From Candidatus Moraniibacteriota bacterium (lineage in GTDB: Bacteria > Patescibacteriota > Minisyncoccia > Moranbacterales > UBA1568): 64,000 bases of DNA. The stretch spans positions 20,201 through 84,200 of the forward strand of contig JAAXTX010000001.1 of NCBI GenBank assembly GCA_013336285.1, in the 5' to 3' direction. The first letter of the stretch is position 1. Each line of letters opens with the position of its first letter. The notes under the pieces were generated by a model, which was not told the DNA's origin, made no database searches, and was given only the letters and a program-made list of their open reading frames with translations. Position numbers and translations under genes: made by a program. Shown piece after piece: positions 33,628-64,000 of this stretch.

Positions 33628-33759
33628 ATATACCCCCTTCTTTTTCGTTGTTCGAATGATAAGGAACCTTCGATAATTCTTCACATAAAAGTGCCGTTTT
33701 TGCAAGCGTCGGGACAAAGAATGCTATACTGTGAATGACTCATCACGATACATCAATCT

Positions 33760-43840: not shown

Positions 43841-44170
43841 AAAGTGATTACTTGATGTTTGTTAACAATTTAACCACGGAGGAAATTATGGACTGACCAC
43901 TTTTTTTCCTGACGGGATGAGCACGTCTGTCATGAGACGTCGCTCATCCCCGCGATGGAAACGGGTCGGTTCCTGAATATCTCCACAAACCAAAAAGGAG
44001 GAAACGTGCAATGAACGATTAGCATTATCCCGCCCAGATCGGCAAGCTTTCGCTGAAAATTATGCGGAGCACTGAAAAAAATAGCACAATATGTAGGCCA
44101 AACGTCCAAACGGACGGATAGCCCTTTCAAAAAACCCCGGTGATCGTATTCATACGACCCGGGGTTCTTC
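43841..44170 (+). ncRNA. candidate ~330-nt non-coding transcript (promoter to intrinsic terminator) containing a GGGATGAGC..GCTCATCCC hairpin and two SD-preceded mini-ORFs (MD*, MND*)
   Basis: No ORF longer than 19 codons between the promoter at 43806 and the terminator at 44129-44176. It contains two perfect SD sequences (GGAGG, AAAGGAGG), each followed by a 2-3 codon ORF. No match to known RNA family motifs that I can recognise. Confidence 0.2.
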
Positions 44171-54291: not shown

Positions 54292-56958
54292 TTACGCTTT
54301 CAGGCTCCCCCAGTCCTTTCCGATCGCCGTTTCGGCGATGAGAGGGACTCGCAGTCGATATGCCGATTCCATGACGCGTTTCGCCTCTGTCGCGAATTCC
54401 TCGGCAATCGCTTCCTTTACTTCGAAAATGAGTTCGTCGTGTACCTGAAGCAACATCCGCGCCTGGTCACCGTACTTCGGCAGCATTTCCGAAACGCGAA
54501 TCATGGCAAGTTTTACGATATCGGCCTCAAGCCCCTGGATAGGCATATTGATCGCCATGCGTTCGCCGGACTGTGCCAGATTCCGATTCTGACTCGATAT
54601 CTCGGGCACATATCGGCGACGGCCAAGTTCCGTCTCCACATACCCCTTCTCCCGCGCGAGTGTCTTCATCGATTCCATATAGGATGTGACACCCGGAAAT
54701 TTCCTGAAATATGTTTCGATGAACTCAGCCGCCTCCGTCGTGGGAATACCGAGACTCTGAGAAAGACCGTACGCGCTCATGCCGTACATGAGTCCGAAAT
54801 TGAACACTTTCGCCTGACGCCTCATATCGCTCGTCACTTCTTCGGGCATCACGCCAAAGACTGCCGATGCCGTCGCCTTATGGACATCCTCGCCTGTGGC
54901 GAACGATGTCATGAGCGATTCGTCGCCGCTCACGTGTGCCATAACGCGAAGCTCGATCTGCGAGTAATCGGCGCCCACGAAGAGATGCCCGGGTTCCGCT
55001 TCGAACGCGCCACGGATCGCGACGCTCCACTTTTCCCTTGCCGGAATATTCTGCAGGTTCGGCTCGGTAGAGGAAAGACGGCCGGTCGTCGTCACCGCCT
55101 GCTGATATGTCGTATGGATTCGCGACTGCGCGTCGACAAGCGATGGAAAGGCGTCGAGATATGTCGTCTTCAGTTTGAAAAGTTCCCGTTCCTCCTCCAC
55201 GAGGGAAACGATCGGATACTCCTTGAGTTTCGCGAGTTCCGTCGACGCCGTGGAAATGCCGGTCTTCGTCCTTTTGAGACCGGTCGTGGGGATCGCAAGA
55301 TCGACGAAAAGCACTTCCGCAAGCTGCTTTGGCGAATTGATATTGAATTCCTTTCCGGCAAGATCGAAGACCTTCCGTTCCACCGTCTTGAGTTCCTTGC
55401 CCAACGTATCCGAAAGGTCACGGAACTTTCCGGTATTGAGTCGGATCCCTTCCCGCTCCATATTCGCGAGAATCGGGATGAGCGGAATTTCGACTTCGGC
55501 AAACAACCGGGAGAGATTCCACTGCCCGGCCTGCTCGCGCGAAACCGACCCCATCTTATCGCGCAGCCGCGACGAGAGACGGGATATGCCCTCCGCGACG
55601 GATGCGAACGTTTCGGGATCGAATTCCTCAAGCAGCAAATGTTCGAGCTCGATCCTCGTTCCCGCCTGAAGCAGATAGCTGGCGACCATCGTGTCGAACG
55701 CAATGCCGGCAAGCTTGATATCCTCATCGCGAAGCGTATGCCATGCGGCCTTCGCGTCATGAAAGACCTTCGGTATCTTTCCGTCCTCGAGGAATTCTTT
55801 TATTACGACTTTCGTTTCATCGTTCCATTCCGCCGTAACGGCGCCATTCGCATGAGCGAGTTCGACCGTCTCGATACCGGCGCTTCCGAAGAGCGACGCT
55901 TCGCCGGAAACGATATTCACCGCCACTCTCTCACCTTCCGTTTCGTGAAGAAACGTCTTCACCTCCTCCGGTGTTTTCAATACCTTCGGCTTTTTCTTTT
56001 TCCCTTCCCTCTGCGTTCCTCCTTCCGCATTCCTTTTGCCTGATTCTTTATTCATCATTCGTGATTCCGTTCCGCCAGGTATGCGTTTCAGCAGACTGAA
56101 AAATCCGTTCGCCCTGAACAGTTCCGCCACGACGACCGTGTCGAAATCGCGGGCTACGCAGGCCGCCGGATCGAACGCGACCGGAGCGTTCGTGTCGATC
56201 GTTCCGAGCTCCTTCGAGAAAAACGCCATCTCCCTGTCCGCGACAAGTTTTTTTCGTACCGTCTCTTTCACCGAATCAAGCGAGTCATAGACTTTCTCGA
56301 GCGATCCGAATTCCCGAAGCAGGTCCGTCGCCGTCTTCACGCCGATTCCCGCCACGCCGGGAATATTGTCCGAGTTATCGCCCGCAAGCCCCTTGTAATC
56401 GGGAATGGCAGCGGGAAGAAAACCATATTTGGCCATGACCGCCGCCTTGTCGTAAAGCACGATGTCCTTCACGCCCTTGCGAAGCGCGAAGACCTTCACC
56501 AGAGGCGTCACCAGCTGTAACGCGTCATTGTCACCCGTGACGATAACCGTCGGGATACCGAGCTCGGACGCCTGTCTCGCGAGCGTTCCCACGCAATCGT
56601 CCGCCTCGAATCCTTCCTGCTCATAGATCGGAATGTTGAACGCGCGGACCAGATCCTTCACGAGCGGAATCTGGGCATACAGATCGTCCGGTGCCTTGAC
56701 CCGGGTCGCCTTGTAGTCGGCGAACTTCTCATGACGGAAGGTCGGCACGGCCAAATCGAACGACGCGGCGATGTATTCCGGATGAAACTTCTCCAGGACG
56801 GACAAAAGCGTCATCGCCACGCCATACACGGCACCGACGGTCTGCCCGGCCTTGTTCGTCAGGGGCGGCAACGCATGATACGCGCGATGAATGAGCGCGT
56901 TCCCGTCAAGAAGTACGAGAATTTTTTCTTCCGATTTCTTTGCCATAGAGTTTTTCAA
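54292..56958 (-). CDS. polA: DNA polymerase I (5'-3' exonuclease + polymerase domains)
   Basis: 888 aa. N-terminal 5' nuclease (LVLLDGNALIHRAYHAL). C-terminal family-A polymerase motifs (DYSQIELR; KVFNFGLMYG; QVHDELIFE). Confidence 0.9.
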   Translation of the reverse strand: MKNSMAKKSEEKILVLLDGNALIHRAYHALPPLTNKAGQTVGAVYGVAMTLLSVLEKFHPEYIAASFDLAVPTFRHEKFADYKATRVKAPDDLYAQIPLVKDLVRAFNIPIYEQEGFEADDCVGTLARQASELGIPTVIVTGDNDALQLVTPLVKVFALRKGVKDIVLYDKAAVMAKYGFLPAAIPDYKGLAGDNSDNIPGVAGIGVKTATDLLREFGSLEKVYDSLDSVKETVRKKLVADREMAFFSKELGTIDTNAPVAFDPAACVARDFDTVVVAELFRANGFFSLLKRIPGGTESRMMNKESGKRNAEGGTQREGKKKKPKVLKTPEEVKTFLHETEGERVAVNIVSGEASLFGSAGIETVELAHANGAVTAEWNDETKVVIKEFLEDGKIPKVFHDAKAAWHTLRDEDIKLAGIAFDTMVASYLLQAGTRIELEHLLLEEFDPETFASVAEGISRLSSRLRDKMGSVSREQAGQWNLSRLFAEVEIPLIPILANMEREGIRLNTGKFRDLSDTLGKELKTVERKVFDLAGKEFNINSPKQLAEVLFVDLAIPTTGLKRTKTGISTASTELAKLKEYPIVSLVEEERELFKLKTTYLDAFPSLVDAQSRIHTTYQQAVTTTGRLSSTEPNLQNIPAREKWSVAIRGAFEAEPGHLFVGADYSQIELRVMAHVSGDESLMTSFATGEDVHKATASAVFGVMPEEVTSDMRRQAKVFNFGLMYGMSAYGLSQSLGIPTTEAAEFIETYFRKFPGVTSYMESMKTLAREKGYVETELGRRRYVPEISSQNRNLAQSGERMAINMPIQGLEADIVKLAMIRVSEMLPKYGDQARMLLQVHDELIFEVKEAIAEEFATEAKRVMESAYRLRVPLIAETAIGKDWGSLKA

Positions 56959-57552: not shown

Positions 57553-58155
57553 TCAGACGGCGAACTGCCCGGAAAGGGGAGCGCTCTCTTCATTGCCGCC
57601 CCAAAGCCGATCCTGGAGTTCCTTTCGCTTCTTCCGTACTTCCGTTACGGATCCGCCGCATTCCTGCCGCTTCTGCTGCCACTTCTCGTATTTCCTCCCC
57701 ATCCTCTCTTCGCGCATCTGAAAAAACTTCTGCTGCAGCGAGAGTTTCGCCTCCCGCAATCCCGACTTTGCGAAACGCTCCCGGTCCATTCCGCGCTCAT
57801 AGGCCTGTCTGCCGCGTTTCTGAAGACTCTCATACGCGACCGAGGCCGCTCCGACCGTCGCATCGACCGTATTCCTTACTCCGTCTTTCACCATTTCCGG
57901 TGCCGCGAAGGCGTAGTCCACCGCCTTTCCGCCGAACTCCTTGATACGGTTCGCCCCGTCTTGCAATCGTTCCTTCGTCGAATTCCATTTCTCACGTACG
58001 GACGACATGAAAGCCGACCTCCGTTCCTGCCCGATTTCCCGATAGGATTTCTGTTCCGTTCCTTTTTCACTTCCTTCGCTTTGTTCCGTCAACGGAGGCA
58101 TCCTCTCCGGAGTAGGACCCGTCTGGGAACCGGGGGCGCTATTTTCTGATCTCAT
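57553..58155 (-). CDS. hypothetical protein (200 aa, charged/helical)
   Basis: ORF only. Confidence 0.35.
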   Translation of the reverse strand: MRSENSAPGSQTGPTPERMPPLTEQSEGSEKGTEQKSYREIGQERRSAFMSSVREKWNSTKERLQDGANRIKEFGGKAVDYAFAAPEMVKDGVRNTVDATVGAASVAYESLQKRGRQAYERGMDRERFAKSGLREAKLSLQQKFFQMREERMGRKYEKWQQKRQECGGSVTEVRKKRKELQDRLWGGNEESAPLSGQFAV

Positions 58156-58287: not shown

Positions 58288-58316
58288 TTGACTTGATTGA
58301 AAAAGTATGCTATACT
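58288..58316 (+). promoter_or_regulatory. consensus sigma70-type promoter (-35 TTGACT, 17 nt, -10 TATACT)
   Basis: aatTGACTtgattgaaaaagtatgcTATACTttta, preceded by an A/T-rich UP-like region. Confidence 0.5.
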
Positions 58317-58322
58317 TTTATG

Positions 58323-58549
58323 TTCTGAAAAGTGGTTCTTTAGTAAAAGCAGCTCCCTTTCGGTAAAAGGGACGGATGATTTCGCATGACCCCTCGTGCC
58401 GGATATATGCCGAGCCTGGAGGGCCTGTCAACTCCCAACGGGGGAAGATGGGGAAATCATCAAACAAAGCACAGGGTCTGGAGATGGGGAGAGGATATAT
58501 ACATATTCAAACTCTTCCAACATTTCTCCAGACCCTTTCCCCTTTTTAT
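58323..58549 (+). ncRNA. candidate ~225-nt small RNA from consensus promoter to strong intrinsic terminator
   Basis: Terminator AGGGTCTGGAGA-(38-nt loop)-TCTCCAGACCCT + TTCCCCTTTTTATA at 58472-58549. Internal hairpin CTCCCTTTCGGTAAAAGGGACGG. No credible ORF. Contains the GAAGATGGGG..GAAATCATC motif shared with the double-hairpin repeats. Confidence 0.3.
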
Positions 58550-59106
58550 ACGTCTTTATATATCACCGCGATATGGCGGATCGAATGGAGAAGTAGCTTC
58601 ATATCGACAACGGGCACGAGGATATATCCGATGAAAAATCCGACCGGACATTACCTCGCCTCAGAAAAGGCATGGGGGATGCGAGGAGCGCGTATCTCGA
58701 TTCATCATTCGCTTGCGCCGCCTTTTCCGCACAGGGTGAGATTAAGAAGTGTTCGCAACGGCAAATGATTTACAGGATTTCCGTACGATAAATACCTATC
58801 CGTTTAAATCTAGGAGGGATTTCGAAAATTAGAAAAAATGGTACGGCAAAGGAGCGTGAGATGGGTAAGATTCGATAGATTCGTGAGACACGGCACCAGC
58901 CGATGTTTTTTTATCCGCAACAATGCTTACGAGAAGACGCTATCTTGGTCCGGTTCCCCTCCCTTGCCGTATACTGTTGTCTACCGTCTGCCGTTCTCTC
59001 CCCTCACTCGCCGACCTCACGAATCATCCGCTTCATCACTTACTGTTTTCTATCATATACAGGCTACCCTCTGCCGTCTATCGATGGTAAAATACGGACA
59101 CATGAA

Positions 59107-62100
59107 ATGCGAACTACCAACAGCATCAGAAGCGTCGCGGACGGATACCGACACGACTCCGCACCGGGAATCGTCGGATTTTGAAATCGACACGAACCAG
59201 GAGTCACGGGAACGTGAATTGGCTGCGGTCCATAAATGGACACGCGGTTTTTTCGAGATGCACTATCCGAATTTTCCATTCGGAACAAAGAATCACTTTC
59301 TCAATTATTGTGAACGGGAAGGCTTCGCGACAACCGGCATCGGACCGAGAACAATGGACAGGGAAGGTGCGTCAAACGCGATGTTTTCAGGTAAGACACT
59401 CCTGACAAGGGAATATTCTGAAACACGAGGCTCCGATAAAGTCTTCGTAAATTCGGACGTAATCATCTCGTTTTTCGAGGAGATTATCGACTACGTGAAC
59501 AAAAAGGCTGCCGGAGATCCGGATTCCGCGAAACTCTTCTGTCAGAACATGGGTGGCGCGATGGAAAACATCCGAAACACATGGATAAGCAGCAATCTTG
59601 ATATCGCGCAAGAGTTCGGGATAGCGGCAAACGCGTGGAATACGCCGTGTCTCAGACAAGCTCTTGCCGGGCCTTTACTCTCGGAAACATGGGACCGGAT
59701 CGAGGGAGCCGGCATGAACGAGGTACGTGATACGTCCGACGCATTGTCAGCGTTGCCGCAAAGCGAACGAATGAATATCATCCGACTCGTGCCAATGCTT
59801 TCGAATGCGAACGAAGACGAAAAAGCTGTCACCGACCTGACTCGGCGGCAGGAAAAATATCTCGCGCTTCTTACGAGACTTGCCGATACCGATATCCCGA
59901 CAGTGCGATTCGCTGCCATGCGCGCACTTGCCGCCACGGAGCAGGATTCGGATCCACTCGAGGAAAAAGATGTGAAGCGGTCTTTATGGGATTCTGTCCT
60001 TGAAAAAGATACGTCTCCTTGTTCGCCGGAACAGGAAGCGGTTTCCGTACGGTTGAAACGGACTGTCATTCCCGAGCATTCCCTTCCATACGGATACTCG
60101 GCGATACTTCCCATTGCCAGCGATATGGTCGCTTTCTATGACGAGGATTACATCCCGCAGCATCTCGCCCGAATCGACTCGGAAACGCTCTCCAGGCTCA
60201 TCGTTTCCGAAAGCGATACCGACTGGGGCGCGGTGAACCGTATTCGTGAGTTCCTTCTGGAAAAACGTGTCCTTACGAAAGATCGGATCAAGGAATCCGT
60301 GTCGGGTCTTTCGAAGTGCCTCTTTAGCGATGAGTCCTTCTCTGACACCGATACGCTCGCCAAGAGATTCTTTTCGGCGTCCGGCGTCATAGCCGAAGAT
60401 CGATGGAAAGATCTCTTGGACGGCATGTCACGGGTTCAGTCATACGAGCAGGTTCTCTGGAAGAATATCGGAAATATCCGGGAACGAATCGCCATGGAAC
60501 ATGCATTCCGCATAAACGAAAAGGAACGACGACTGAAAGAACTTACCGAAACGCATACACCCGAAAATAAGCGGCTGCAGCGTGAGTTGCTGAATCGGTT
60601 CGCCGCCGATAATGCTGCCGACAGTACTCGACAATGGCAAGAAGAGGATTCGATGCGTGAATCATTGAAGAAGGCAATGGATATCGGATCGGCAAAGAAA
60701 ACCGTCAGCGACATTTTGGAGGAGCTTCGAAACGGTCGGGACCGACTCGAGCAAGACTTTCTCGTTTTTATTGAATCAAGGATAGAAGCGGGGACGCTAT
60801 CCGGCGAGATACACCGGGTTTCTCCGGTCTCCTATGACGATCTTTTTAAAGATTCCGCCATCATACCTTTCGAACCGAATGGCGGAGACCTCGAAAACAT
60901 TCGACTCCTGCAACAACTCCATGCTCCGGACGGCGCCGAACTCCTCGGAATGCCATTCGATACGTTGCCGATACGGTCACAGGTGCACTTTCTCCTCACC
61001 CGTATTCGTGAAAATGATTCTGCCGCGGAACGGTTCCGCCTCGTCTTGGAAAAACATCCCGCACTTAAAGACGATATCGCCTATTCGTTCCTCGTCACGG
61101 CGGAGGGATCGGAATACGGCGAGACCGTTCTCACGCTTGCCGAATCACTCGACACCGAAACGCTCGGACCGATCCTGAAGAAATACGCGGAGATCACGAA
61201 AGACGCGGATGCGGTCGCGGAGTTCGTTCGGATGGAGTTTTCCGATCTGGATGTGACCGAGACGGCATCAGTCACCGAGACGATCACAAAGAATCTGCTC
61301 CGCCGCGGGCGGGAACTCCTCGTCGAATTTTCAAAGCATGCCGATTCCGATACGTTGCTTCGCCGGCTTGACAATATCAGTGCCAGTGTCGAACTGTACA
61401 AGAAAACCTTTCGCTCACTGTACGAATCAGGCAAACTGAAAAACCCCGCAGATATGGCGAATAGCGAAATCCTGTCCCTGTCGCCGGAAGATCTTTCGGA
61501 AGTCGACAAGGAATGGATGCGAAATCTCTACCGAAAAAGCTACCCGGAAGAAAGTTATTCCTCCTCGTTTCGCGAAGCGATTTTTGCCGGCTTAGATAAG
61601 CGCATGGAAAATATCGGCCCCGGCACGCGCTGTCACATCCTCAAAAGAAACGGTAAAAACGTATCATTTGTTTTTTTTGAAGATACCGGCGAAGCCGAAG
61701 ACGGTCGAGTTGAAAAATTCGGCAGCTCATTCAATGTGGAGCCGGAATACCGTAGCGATATGGTCGGAGGGGCGTTTTGGGACACGGTCCTCGCCTCGGA
61801 ATCAAACGGTTCCATCATAACCATCACCGGCGATCATGCCTTACCGAATCCCGTTTCCGATTTCTACATCAACAAGAAAGGTTTCTTCGGCATCGGCATG
61901 CGAACCGTCGGAGACCGCCCGCTTCCGCTTCTCCGCAGGGACGAGCAACAGGAAAAGAAACTTCTCACCAGAAAGACGACGGTGGCGATGTCCTTCGAAC
62001 TTGGCGAACGCATTGCCGCCGACACGGCGCCGCACGCGTGGAGCAAATGGGTGACGGCCGAAAAAACCGACCGAGACGGCATGGAACAAACCATCATCCG

Positions 62101-62269
62101 TCGAACGGCCGAGGGATTCTTCCTTTCTTGTATACTTACCGATCCGAAAGATACGACAAAAAACAATGTCGTTTTGATATTCGAGGACCCTGATGAGCGA
62201 ATGAATATCGACAATCGGCACCCGTCAGAGACGGCGACCGCTCACCAGAAAACGGAAACGACGGTCTGA
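59107..62269 (+). CDS. large hypothetical protein (~1050 aa), alpha-helical, possible HEAT/ARM-like repeats
   Basis: Long ORF. The segment PTVRFAAMRALAATEQD resembles a HEAT repeat. Start uncertain (track ORF begins 58838; the first Met with nearby purine-rich sequence is ~59107). Confidence 0.45.
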
Positions 62270-63544: not shown

Positions 63545-63573
63545 TTGACACTATGGCAAATACCTGCTATACT
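63545..63573 (+). promoter_or_regulatory. consensus sigma70-type promoter (-35 TTGACA, 17 nt, -10 TATACT) with AT-rich UP-like region, followed by >400 nt GA-rich ORF-free leader
   Basis: agtaTTGACActatggcaaatacctgcTATACTtcgctg. Upstream 63470-63540 is >75% A/T. Confidence 0.5.
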
Positions 63574-64000
63574 TCGCTGTTACGATGAGAGATCGAGCAG
63601 AGAGAAAGGGAGAGAAAGAAACGTACCTTCAAGAGAGAACCGGAAAGACTACTCCCGTTGTCAGAGAGAGACACGGAGAGGAACCGGGTCTCGGGATCCG
63701 TGAGAACCGACCCCTTCGTCCTCTTTCCAAGAACAAATGATGGTTTGGAAAGACCTAGTACCTTCTATTCAAATAGCGCGAACTGCCTTCAGTCGTCACC
63801 TCGCTCGGTCTCCGTCTTCTTACGAAAAGAGCGTCGGAACGGACGCGAAACGAGAGAGGTTCCGGGAACACGTCCTGTTACTACCCTGGTTCGCTAGGAA
63901 CAAATGTTTCTCATTCGAATGAGAGCCATGAAGATCCTTGAGAGAGACTTCCTATGAGTACCGCCTCGGCGGGAAACGGGATGAGCTTGAGGTGATCATT

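What the first reader, a model, noticed from the sequence alone, without database searches (positions are those of the whole stretch)
58288..58880. Promoter-to-terminator candidate sRNA (~225 nt) followed by an SD-perfect 5-codon mini-ORF
A consensus promoter (TTGACT-17-TATACT) is followed ~160 nt later by an unusually long perfect 12-bp terminator stem with a U-tract (58472-58549). Nothing coding lies between them. Downstream, at 58861, AAAGGAG-6nt-ATG GGT AAG ATT CGA TAG is a 5-codon ORF with an ideal SD. This resembles the SD-preceded MD* and MND* mini-ORFs at 43890 and 44010. Such mini-ORFs can act as ribosome-loading or stalling elements.
Basis: seen in the sequence. Interest (0 to 1): 0.5.

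Follow-up and report, generated by a model that had tools for sequence, protein, structure and literature searches.

The report
New structured RNA gene in Moranbacteria
The flagged stretch is most of a promoter-driven, roughly 275-nt folded non-coding RNA that is conserved in a few Moranbacteria (candidate phyla radiation) genomes and matches no known RNA family; its "terminator" is an internal hairpin of that RNA, and the 5-codon mini-ORF is most likely a chance feature beside a decayed gene remnant.

Summary
The promoter (58288-58316), the 12-bp hairpin and the SD-plus-5-codon ORF are all in the sequence as described.

- **RNA-1.** The promoter drives a conserved structured non-coding RNA with a core at 58322-58593 (about 272 nt). 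I found homologues in 7 other Moranbacteria contigs. All carry the same TTGACTT-N17-TGCTAyAcT promoter, and two end in clean intrinsic terminators just after the last helix.
- **The "terminator".** This hairpin is internal helix P7. Conservation continues 3' of it into another hairpin, P8, and the pyrimidine run after P7 is the 5' strand of P8.
- **Structure.** Covariation supports all the domains. In the two halves, 75-83% of cells are paired, against 42-57% in slid controls.
- **Known families.** No Rfam family matches, even at E<=10.
- **Mini-ORF.** It sits just 3' of a frameshifted pseudogene remnant, has no conserved counterpart in the homologues checked, and is at chance level. The large downstream gene has its own conserved extended -10 and is probably leaderless.
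- **Function.** Unknown. A stable trans-acting, protein-binding RNA is the most likely reading.
- **Second RNA.** A larger unknown RNA with the same promoter type starts at 63575.

The parts
58288..58316 (+). Promoter of RNA-1: -35 TTGACT (58288-58293), 17-nt spacer, extended -10 TGcTATACT (58308-58316).
   Evidence: scores it 10/12 with TG. The same TTGACTT-N17-TGCTAyAcT sits directly upstream of every homologue. The motif occurs 2 times in the window against 0.00 expected.
58322..58593 (+). RNA-1: conserved structured non-coding RNA core. The 5' end is predicted at the conserved G, 6 nt after the -10. The 3' boundary is the end of the conserved helix P8; the true 3' end is not mapped.
   Evidence: nhmmer and CM hits in 7 other contigs. 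Folding z-score -3.88. Covariation counts. No Rfam hit. No conserved ORF.
58325..58343 (+). H1: 5' hairpin (CUGAA/UUUAG in the window). The near-invariant GGUUCUUU spans the loop and the 3' strand.
   Evidence: The isolated-domain fold gives this hairpin in 5 of 6 homologues with different stem sequences; the window's own MFE differs. Helix 1 has 3 of 5 pairs with changes on both sides. The window pairing was read by hand.
58354..58372 (+). H2: 7-bp hairpin, pyrimidine-rich 5' strand and purine-rich 3' strand (UCCCUUU/AAAGGGA).
   Evidence: All 42 cells are canonical in 6 homologues, and 6 of 7 positions vary. See also (helix 2, 87.8% paired).
58374..58461 (+). Three-way junction. P3 (GAUGAUUUC/GAAAUCAUC) closes P4 (CCCUC/GAGGG), which carries the P5 hairpin (GCCGG/CCG-A-GC), and P6 (CUGUC/GAUGG).
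   Evidence: Independent MFE folds of the six homologues. Helices 3-7. P3 position 5 is A-U, G-U or G-C.
58474..58535 (+). Basal helix GGGUCUGGAGA/UCUCCAGACCC, inner helix GGGAGAG/CUCUUCC.
   Evidence: Basal helix in 8 homologues: 89% paired, 4 of 8 pairs with changes on both sides. The window differs from the others by three compensatory pairs.
58536..58593 (+). P8: irregular 3' hairpin. The pyrimidine stretch right after P7 (UUUCC...) pairs with the conserved 3' GGAGA. Apical CCGC/GCGG.
   Evidence: Helix 5: 19 pairs, 84% paired, 5 with changes on both sides. The window's own MFE differs here, so the window pairing rests on homology plus hand pairing.
58631..58826 (+). Frameshifted, truncated remnant (pseudogene) of a small gene that is intact in L002 (153 aa, L002 1103-1564).
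   Evidence: tblastn finds residues 16-43 in one frame (58666-58749) and 45-70 in another (58749-58826), joint E=3e-12. The N-terminal similarity from ATG 58631 was read by eye.
58848..58878 (+). SD-like AAAGGAG plus the 5-codon ORF ATG GGT AAG ATT CGA TAG. Judged a chance feature.
   Evidence: Present. About 9 chance AGGAG-N4-9-ATG sites are expected per window. L001 has no counterpart at the equivalent place, and the intervening region is unrelated in the other homologues. It lies just 3' of the pseudogene remnant.
58886..58912 (+). Weak terminator-like hairpin (CGGC-ACCA-GCCG core) followed by U7. It sits at the position orthologous to a strong terminator in L001 (shared TTTTTTTATCCGCA).
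   Evidence: window z-score -1.27 (not significant); L001 3453-3510 z-score -5.0. Sequences.
59085..59093 (+). Extended -10 (TGGTAAAAT) of the large downstream gene, 8 nt before its ATG. This implies a leaderless or near-leaderless mRNA.
   Evidence: TGnTAnAAT lies 6-8 nt before the ATG in all six loci. In L001 the ATG inside the motif is out of frame, so the conservation is at the DNA level.
59102..62269 (+). Large protein (1055 aa, NCBI HGA31_00365): helical N-terminal part and a C-terminal GNAT acetyltransferase domain. It neighbours RNA-1 in 6 of 8 loci but is not strictly linked.
   Evidence: annotated start. GNAT: homologues pass Pfam thresholds, and the profile hits PDB GNATs at E=3e-9. 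There are 680 related cluster representatives. L039 has RNA-1 without this gene.
63545..64000 (+). Second promoter of the same type (TTGACAC-N-TGCTATACT, 63545-63573) and the 5' 426 nt of a second, larger, highly conserved non-coding RNA (RNA-2), cut by the window end.
   Evidence: nhmmer E=1e-116 to 1e-199 in the window, L001, L033 and L034. No Rfam hit.

Best explanation
Window 58288-58593 is an independent gene for a highly structured non-coding RNA, here called RNA-1.

**Shown**
- A near-consensus sigma-70 promoter with an extended -10 is conserved, together with the RNA, in 8 Moranbacteria contigs.
- The RNA core is about 272 nt.
- The helices are maintained by compensatory changes while primary sequence drifts to 33-73% identity.
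- Two homologues (L034, L039) end in strong intrinsic terminators right after P8. The RNA is therefore a discrete transcription unit of about 285-320 nt in those genomes.
- It always lies near polA and is transcribed away from it.

**Inferred**
- The TSS is at the conserved G (58322).
- In the window the transcript either ends inefficiently at the window-specific U-run after P7 or runs on to the weak terminator at about 58912.
- The RNA acts in trans as a stable, protein-binding or scaffold RNA, rather than as a base-pairing sRNA or a riboswitch. Its conservation pattern is that of a folded multi-helix RNA, and its downstream genes are not conserved.
- Its molecular partner is unknown. The adjacent GNAT-domain protein and the second RNA that uses the same promoter type are candidates only.

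The 5-codon ORF has no role in this model.
For: - **Promoter.**
- **Homologues.** L001; L002 and L003; L033; L034; L037; L039. Summary scores: E=1e-31 to 1e-58.
- **Terminators after P8.** L034 z-score -5.9. L039 CGGCG-CCGGA-CGCCG followed by U7.
- **Structure.** Each homologue's domains fold independently into the same helices. The window folding z-score is -3.88, with 0 of 200 shuffles as stable.
- **3' half, 8 sequences.** 83.3% of cells are paired, against 44-52% when slid. 13 pairs change on both sides (1 of 500 shuffles reach this). Covariation is 0.213, against at most 0.141 when slid (0 of 500).
- **5' half, 7 sequences.** 75.5% paired against 42-57%. 19 cells change on both sides (0 of 500). 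Covariation is 0.306 against at most 0.19 (1 of 500).
- **Raw MAFFT alignment of the whole RNA.** 75.6% paired against 42-50%.
- **Non-coding.** No frame stays open across the whole element in any homologue, and 5-10 indels per pair are not multiples of 3.
- **Not a known family.** No Rfam hit at gathering score or at E<=10, in the window or in 5 homologous loci. ARAGORN finds nothing.
- **Not the UTR of the big gene.**
Against: - There are no expression data, so the TSS, the 3' end and the stability are all predictions.
- Only 7-8 related sequences are available. The two alignments used for the pair counts were fitted to the model structure, and that structure was derived from one member (L002). 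Both facts inflate the counts.
- Several helices (P4, P6, the inner part of P3) have 30-35% unpaired cells.
- The window's own minimum-free-energy fold does not reproduce H1, H2 or P8.
- The family is narrow. One exact-pattern scan of 241 million metagenome records recovered only copies of L001.
- The trans-acting, protein-binding mode of action is inference by exclusion. No partner is identified.
- In 4 of 6 loci an SD+ATG ORF starts 35-45 nt after P8. That leaves room for a cis-acting role.
Confidence: 0.78

Rival explanations
1. RNA-1 is a cis-acting 5' leader (riboswitch-like or attenuator) that controls the genes immediately downstream on the same strand. Two pairings are mutually exclusive and could act as an expression platform: H1-loop UUCUUU with the 3' GGAGAA, or post-P7 UUCUCC with the same GGAGAA.
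For: - In the window, L001, L002 and L033 an SD-preceded ATG begins 35-45 nt after P8 on the same strand.
- RNAalifold on 4 sequences proposed the 5' UUCUUU / 3' GGAGAA pairing, whereas the domain folds give UUCUC/GAGAA. Alternative pairings therefore exist.
- In the window and in L001 no strong terminator follows P8 until about 300 nt downstream.
Against: - The downstream ORFs are unrelated to each other: 60-aa membrane-like, 153 aa, 87 aa and 146 aa. The window's copy is a frameshifted remnant.
- L034 and L039 terminate right after P8 with nothing to regulate.
- The big gene has its own conserved promoter.
- No known riboswitch family matches.
Confidence: 0.1
2. RNA-1 works together with the neighbouring 1055-aa GNAT-domain protein, and possibly with RNA-2 and the TrmB-like regulator, as one module. 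It could be an RNA scaffold, substrate, guide or regulator of the acetyltransferase.
For: - RNA-1 lies upstream of the GNAT gene, in the same orientation, in 6 loci: the window, L001, L002, L003, L033 and L034.
- These loci are scattered in a polA neighbour-joining tree among loci that lack the block next to polA.
- RNA-2 flanks the other side of the block and uses the same unusual promoter. The motif occurs only at these two sites in 64 kb.
Against: - L039 has a complete RNA-1, with promoter and terminator, but no GNAT gene within 5.5 kb. There it lies between polA and tsaE.
- Unrelated genes and an AbiE toxin-antitoxin pair are inserted between RNA-1 and the GNAT gene.
- The three units have separate promoters.
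- The GNAT domain family is widespread, with 680 cluster representatives, whereas the RNA is rare.
- Co-location may simply be inherited synteny near polA.
Confidence: 0.15
3. One reading: a sRNA of about 225 nt ends at the 58472-58549 hairpin, and the SD-perfect 5-codon ORF is a functional ribosome-loading or stalling element.
For: - The window alone has a U5 run about 6 nt after the 12-bp stem. Some transcripts could stop there and give a shorter isoform.
- The organism does use SD sequences.
- Three SD-preceded mini-ORFs exist in the window.
Against: - The hairpin is conserved as an internal element, with P8 following it in all 8 homologues.
- The post-stem pyrimidines are the 5' strand of P8.
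- The terminator scan does not call the hairpin.
- The mini-ORF has no counterpart in L001, and the intervening region differs in every other homologue.
- The mini-ORF lies just 3' of a decayed gene.
- About 9 chance SD+ATG sites are expected per window. A random ATG meets a stop within 5 codons about 21% of the time (plus arithmetic).
Confidence: 0.07
4. The region is not a functional RNA. The conservation reflects a DNA-level element, such as divergent promoter or operator sequences next to polA, or an unrecognised small protein gene.
For: - The region lies in a divergent intergenic zone.
- Automatic gene callers placed a 166-aa ORF over it in L039, and mechanical ORFs overlap it in the window.
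Against: - Conservation spans about 270 nt with a helix-preserving substitution pattern.
- No frame stays open across the whole element in any homologue, and the indels break the reading frame.
- A dedicated promoter and dedicated terminators bracket the element.
Confidence: 0.03

Closest known systems
Orphan large structured bacterial ncRNAs found by comparative genomics (OLE, raiA motif, ROOL, GOLLD). The comparison rests on my own knowledge of these classes.
   Same: It is a stand-alone gene with its own promoter. It has a multi-helix fold conserved through covariation while the sequence drifts. It has a narrow phylogenetic range and no obvious mRNA target or regulated gene.
   Different: There is no sequence or structure match to any of them. 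Rfam 15 gives no hit even at E<=10. At about 275 nt it is smaller than OLE, ROOL or GOLLD. The hosts are CPR bacteria. The neighbouring RNA-2 (more than 650 nt) is closer to those classes in size, but it is also unmatched.
Housekeeping stable RNAs (6S RNA, RNase P RNA, SRP RNA, tmRNA)
   Same: It has a strong promoter, a discrete transcription unit and a size of 200-400 nt.
   Different: No Rfam or ARAGORN match. By eye there is no single long hairpin with a central bubble (6S), no GGAAAGUCC P4 motif (RNase P), no domain-IV GGAA/AGCAGCC motif (SRP), and no tRNA-like end or tag ORF (tmRNA). It is also absent from the polA region of closely related genomes.
Rho-independent (intrinsic) terminator
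   Same: A GC-rich perfect 12-bp stem is followed, in the window only, by a U-rich stretch.
   Different: The stem encloses a 38-nt structured interior. The U-run begins about 6 nt after the stem. The element is internal to a longer conserved RNA. True terminators in L034 and L039 lie after P8.
Leader peptides and regulatory mini-ORFs (attenuation, stalling peptides)
   Same: A good SD and start codon precede a very short ORF that lies 7 nt before a terminator-like hairpin.
   Different: No counterpart was seen in the homologues. No regulated gene is on the same transcript, since the big gene has its own promoter. It lies just 3' of a pseudogene remnant. The downstream terminator is weak.

Membership tests
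Any curated Rfam family (Rfam 15, 4227 models) | Covariance-model score at or above the family's gathering threshold. | tested here: not met
   There are 0 hits in the whole window. At E<=10 the region gives only below-threshold miRNA-precursor hits on the hairpin, SpF25 and RsmY. Nothing overlaps RNA-1 in L001, L002, L003, L033 or L034.
Intrinsic terminator (for 58472-58549) | A short GC-rich hairpin with a small loop, immediately followed by a U-tract, placed at the 3' end of the transcription unit. | tested here: not met
   The scan does not call it. The interior is 38 nt. The first 8 nt after the stem hold 4 U. Conserved RNA continues for a further 58 nt, and the real terminators of L034 and L039 follow P8.
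Structured non-coding RNA gene (generic) | Own promoter and terminator; no conserved ORF. | tested here: met
   The promoter is conserved in 8 of 8 homologues. Terminators are present in L034 and L039. No conserved reading frame exists.
Structured non-coding RNA gene (generic) | Secondary structure conserved through compensatory substitutions, above the controls. | tested here: met
   the real structure beats all slid controls, and at most 1 of 500 shuffles reach its covariation score. H2 is 42/42 canonical, with 6 of 7 positions varying. Caveats: few sequences, and model-fitted alignments.
Structured non-coding RNA gene (generic) | A detectable, discrete transcript. | not testable with these tools
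   No transcriptome data are available here.
Riboswitch or cis-regulatory leader | Consistently located upstream of homologous or functionally related genes. | tested here: not met
   The downstream genes differ in every lineage or are absent.
Riboswitch or cis-regulatory leader | An expression platform (terminator/antiterminator or SD sequestration) coupled to the aptamer. | tested here: inconclusive
   Alternative pairings of the 3' GGAGAA exist. No conserved terminator or SD is involved.
Regulatory leader peptide or mini-ORF | Conservation of the mini-ORF (position or peptide) in related genomes, and coupling to a downstream gene. | tested here: not met
   No counterpart is visible in L001, and the RNA-to-gene region holds unrelated content in the other homologues. 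The downstream gene has its own promoter. The frequency is at chance level.
Retron or DRT-type ncRNA (an RNA partner of a reverse transcriptase) | An adjacent reverse-transcriptase gene. | tested here: not met
   The neighbouring large protein has no RT domain (Pfam). It gives only a 13.7-bit hit to the PADLOC Drt1a model (E=0.0025). Its conserved domain is a GNAT.
tRNA / tmRNA | A cloverleaf or tRNA-like domain detected by ARAGORN. | tested here: not met
   No genes are found in the window.

The most novel reading that the evidence does not exclude
RNA-1 and the larger RNA-2 (from 63575) are two previously undescribed structured RNAs. They share a dedicated promoter type and bracket a giant GNAT acetyltransferase and a TrmB-like regulator. 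Together they form a new RNA-protein system of CPR bacteria, for example an RNA-scaffolded or RNA-directed acetyltransferase, or a new class of ornate RNA particle.
Probability: 0.1. Interest if true: 0.85.

Novelty: new member of a known kind. Interest (0 to 1): 0.6.

Why it matters
Candidate-phyla-radiation bacteria have tiny genomes, and very few of their non-coding RNAs have been described. This is a folded RNA of about 275 nt with a near-consensus promoter, conserved structure and no match in Rfam. It is therefore a concrete new RNA family to characterise. Its neighbour, RNA-2, is larger and far more conserved, and may be the bigger prize. The two models built here (R1 and R2) make the family searchable, so its distribution, partners and expression become directly testable. 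The result also corrects the annotation logic. A perfect long hairpin followed by U's was an internal domain, not a terminator, and an 'ideal' SD plus mini-ORF was noise beside a pseudogene.

Tried and rejected
- **Phage collection.** A distant blastn of the intergenic region found no match.
- **Viral contigs.** A DNA-pattern scan gave 3 chance hits. A scan for the big protein found none.
- **Metagenome scan.** The single pattern scan gave 23 loci. Only 3 were real, and all were identical to L001. The pattern was too strict to catch L002, L003, L033 or L034.
- **The search for homologous proteins on the big protein.** It returned only the protein itself, whether given alone or as a 5-sequence profile.
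- **Structure prediction.** A single-sequence prediction was not attempted because it was expected to be poor.
- **mafft-qinsi and mafft-xinsi.** Not available.
- **Literature.** Six searches for CPR/Patescibacteria/Moranbacteria structured RNAs found nothing relevant.
- **Strict RNA-1/GNAT co-occurrence.** I first believed this. I dropped it when the CM found RNA-1 in L039 without the gene, and when L036 and L037 proved to be contig-end cases.
- **Identities rejected.** RNase P, SRP, 6S, tmRNA, T-box, retron msr/msd and group II domain V were rejected on missing motifs (judged by eye) and on Rfam and ARAGORN negatives.
- **Last contig look-up.** L041 was uninformative.
Full report
**Context.** The window comes from a Candidatus Moranbacteria (candidate phyla radiation) metagenome-assembled genome. 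PolA (54292-56958, minus strand) and the large ORF are identical to NCBI proteins from such a MAG on an 84-kb contig. The finding sits in a stretch of about 950 nt. On one side is a 200-aa minus-strand ORF ending at 58155. On the other is a large plus-strand gene whose annotated start is ATG 59102, not the mechanical ORF start at 58838.

**The observation.** All three sequence features exist.
- TTGACT-17-TATACT with an upstream TG lies at 58288-58316.
- A perfect 12-bp stem lies at 58473-58536. It encloses a 38-nt interior with a 7-bp inner helix and has a z-score of -4.4.
- AAAGGAG, 6 nt, then ATG GGT AAG ATT CGA TAG lies at 58848-58878.
- The hairpin is not called as a terminator. The first 8 nt after it hold only four U's. 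The U5 run begins about 6 nt downstream.

**Related sequences.** A search for relatives of the large protein in species-representative genomes gave three Moranbacteria loci.

L001 carries, in the same place upstream of that gene, an obvious homologue of the flagged region. It has the same promoter (TTGACTT-N17-TGCTATACT) and hairpins of different sequence. L002 and L003 carry it about 3 kb upstream of the gene.

Contigs fetched through PolA homologues added further copies:
- L033;
- L034;
- a very divergent copy in L037;
- a complete copy in L039, found only by a covariance model.

With a profile of all eight, the hits score E=1e-31 to 1e-58. Nothing is found in L030-L032, L035, L036, L038, L040 or L041. 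Pairwise identity among the eight RNAs is only 33-73%.

**It is a discrete RNA gene that extends past the 'terminator'.**
- Conservation runs from the G six nt after the -10 (58322) to 58593, which is 58 nt beyond the hairpin.
- In L034 and L039 a strong intrinsic terminator follows directly after this 3' boundary. L034 has GACGAGGCG-CAC-GCCTCGTC followed by T5, z-score -5.9. L039 has CGGCG-CCGGA-CGCCG followed by T7.
- These two cases define units of about 285-320 nt that run from promoter to terminator.
- The window and L001 lack a terminator at that point. Their next one is about 300 nt downstream, at an orthologous position marked by the shared TTTTTTTATCCGCA. It is weak in the window (58886-58912, z-score -1.27) and strong in L001 (z-score -5.0).
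- The region is not coding. No frame stays open across the whole element in any homologue, and most indels are not multiples of three.

**Structure.** Folding each domain of each homologue on its own gives the same architecture, except that the window's own MFE does not reproduce H1, H2's outer pair or P8:
- a 5' hairpin H1, with the near-invariant GGUUCUUU spanning its loop and 3' strand;
- a 7-bp hairpin H2;
- helix P3 (GAUGR/YCAUC), which closes a junction holding P4 with hairpin P5, and P6;
- a UCAAA-like linker;
- an irregular hairpin P8, in which the pyrimidine stretch right after P7 (UUCUCC) pairs with the conserved 3' GGAGAA.

H2 is canonical in all 42 cells while 6 of 7 positions vary. 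The base of P7 in the window differs from the others by three compensatory pairs.

Pair counts support the structure:

| Alignment | Sequences | Cells paired | Slid controls | Changes on both sides | Covariation score |
|---|---|---|---|---|---|
| 3' half, model-fitted | 8 | 83.3% | 44-52% | 13 pairs (1/500 shuffles) | 0.213 vs <=0.141 (0/500) |
| 5' half, model-fitted | 7 | 75.5% | 42-57% | 19 cells (0/500) | 0.306 vs <=0.19 (1/500) |
| Whole RNA, raw MAFFT | 6 | 75.6% | 42-50% | 16 pairs (93/500) | 0.231 vs <=0.145 (17/500) |

The full window RNA folds with a z-score of -3.88.

Caveats apply. There are few, related sequences. The structure was derived from L002. Two of the alignments were fitted to it. 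P4, P6 and the inner part of P3 are the weakest helices.

**Not a known family.** Rfam 15 gives no hit at gathering thresholds in the window. At E<=10 it gives only junk hits (miRNA precursors on the hairpin, SpF25, RsmY) in the region. Nothing overlaps the RNA in five homologous loci. ARAGORN finds no tRNA or tmRNA. Literature searches found no description.

**Relation to the neighbours.** The large gene encodes a helical N-terminal region plus a C-terminal GNAT acetyltransferase domain.
- Homologues pass the Pfam Acetyltransf_1 and Acetyltransf_10 thresholds.
- The domain profile hits PDB GNATs at E=3e-9.
- There are 680 related cluster representatives.
- In all six loci the gene has a conserved TGnTAnAAT element 6-8 nt before its ATG. 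It is therefore probably transcribed on its own as a leaderless mRNA.

This, together with the L034 terminator and the opposite-strand AbiEi/AbiEii pair inserted in L002 and L003, rules out the idea that RNA-1 is merely its 5' UTR.

RNA-1 lies upstream of this gene in six loci, and these are scattered in a PolA tree. However, L039 has RNA-1 between polA and tsaE with no such gene nearby. In L036 and L037 the contigs end too early to judge. The constant neighbour is polA, transcribed divergently. A functional link to the GNAT protein remains possible but unproven.

**The stretch between RNA-1 and the large gene, and the mini-ORF.** This stretch is variable among genomes:
- a 60-aa membrane-like ORF in L001;
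- a 153-aa ORF plus the AbiE pair in L002;
- an 87-aa ORF in L003;
- 146-aa and 80-aa ORFs in L033;
- nothing in L034.

In the window, 58666-58826 matches residues 16-43 and 45-70 of the L002 153-aa protein. The two matches are in different frames and end in a stop (joint E=3e-12). This is a decayed gene remnant.

The 5-codon ORF lies just 3' of the remnant. I saw no counterpart in L001, and the region is unrelated in the other homologues. The organism does use SD sequences: AGGAG-N4-9-ATG occurs 29 times against 9.0 +/- 3.0 expected. About nine such sites per window are therefore chance. A random ATG meets a stop within five codons about one time in five. I therefore treat the mini-ORF as noise.

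**Mechanism.** Shown: a dedicated strong promoter, a discrete unit, and a conserved multi-helix fold. Inferred: a stable trans-acting RNA that works through its fold, by binding or scaffolding protein, and not as a riboswitch or as a short base-pairing sRNA. The grounds are that there is no conserved downstream gene and that two lineages terminate immediately after P8. The partner is unknown.

**A second RNA.** The same promoter type occurs once more, beyond the TrmB-like gene: window 63545-63573, L001 9065, L033 2298 and L034 928. It heads a second non-coding sequence of at least 650 nt. That sequence has long blocks identical between genomes whose proteins are 46-80% identical. It too has no Rfam match. 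The window end cuts it at 64000.

**Verdict.** The boundaries and the terminator are wrong, and the mini-ORF is not supported. What is there is a new family of structured non-coding RNA in Moranbacteria, of unknown function.

Noticed in passing
window 63545-64000 (also L001 9065-~10200, L033 2326-~1680 minus strand, L034 956-~330 minus strand): A second unknown RNA (RNA-2) starts at a promoter of the same type (TTGACAC-N-TGCTATACT). It is at least 650 nt long and rich in GAGAGAG motifs. It has long blocks that are identical between genomes. No Rfam hit. The window end cuts it.
   Followed up: partly
window 59085-59104 (and the equivalent sites in L001, L002, L003, L033, L034): The 1055-aa gene has a conserved extended -10 element (TGnTAnAAT) only 6-8 nt before its ATG and no SD. 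It is probably a leaderless mRNA.
   Followed up: partly
window 58900-59080; L001 3790-3980; L003 3840-3960; L034 upstream of 5416: A pyrimidine-rich (C/T) stretch of about 150 nt upstream of the large gene's promoter is shared between the genomes. Its function is unknown.
   Followed up: no
window 59102-62269: The large protein has a helical (HEAT-like) N-terminal part and a C-terminal GNAT acetyltransferase domain. The conserved C-terminal module of about 350 aa recurs in 680 cluster representatives of 340-2100 aa. It has no Pfam family of its own beyond the GNAT.
   Followed up: partly
window 58631-58826: A frameshifted, truncated remnant of a small gene that is intact in L002 (153 aa, unknown function).
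   Followed up: yes
L002 2189-3452 and L003 2380-3637 (minus strand): An AbiEi/AbiEii type IV toxin-antitoxin pair is inserted between RNA-1 and the large gene. The stretch 3' of RNA-1 looks like a hot spot for variable genes.
   Followed up: partly
L002 3737-3878: An insertion of about 140 nt, bounded by inverted repeats (GGCGTTGTTGAATAATTC ... GAATTATTCAACAACGCC), interrupts the pyrimidine-rich region. It looks like a MITE.
   Followed up: no
L037 100-392 (minus strand): A divergent variant of RNA-1 has the same promoter and recognisable P7 and P8, but its 5' domain is largely different. The contig ends about 100 nt after it.
   Followed up: partly
   Followed up: no
window 33722-33730: This is the only other TGCTATACT in the window. 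It lies in the 6-nt gap between two minus-strand ORFs. I did not check whether a -35 element or an RNA goes with it.
   Followed up: no
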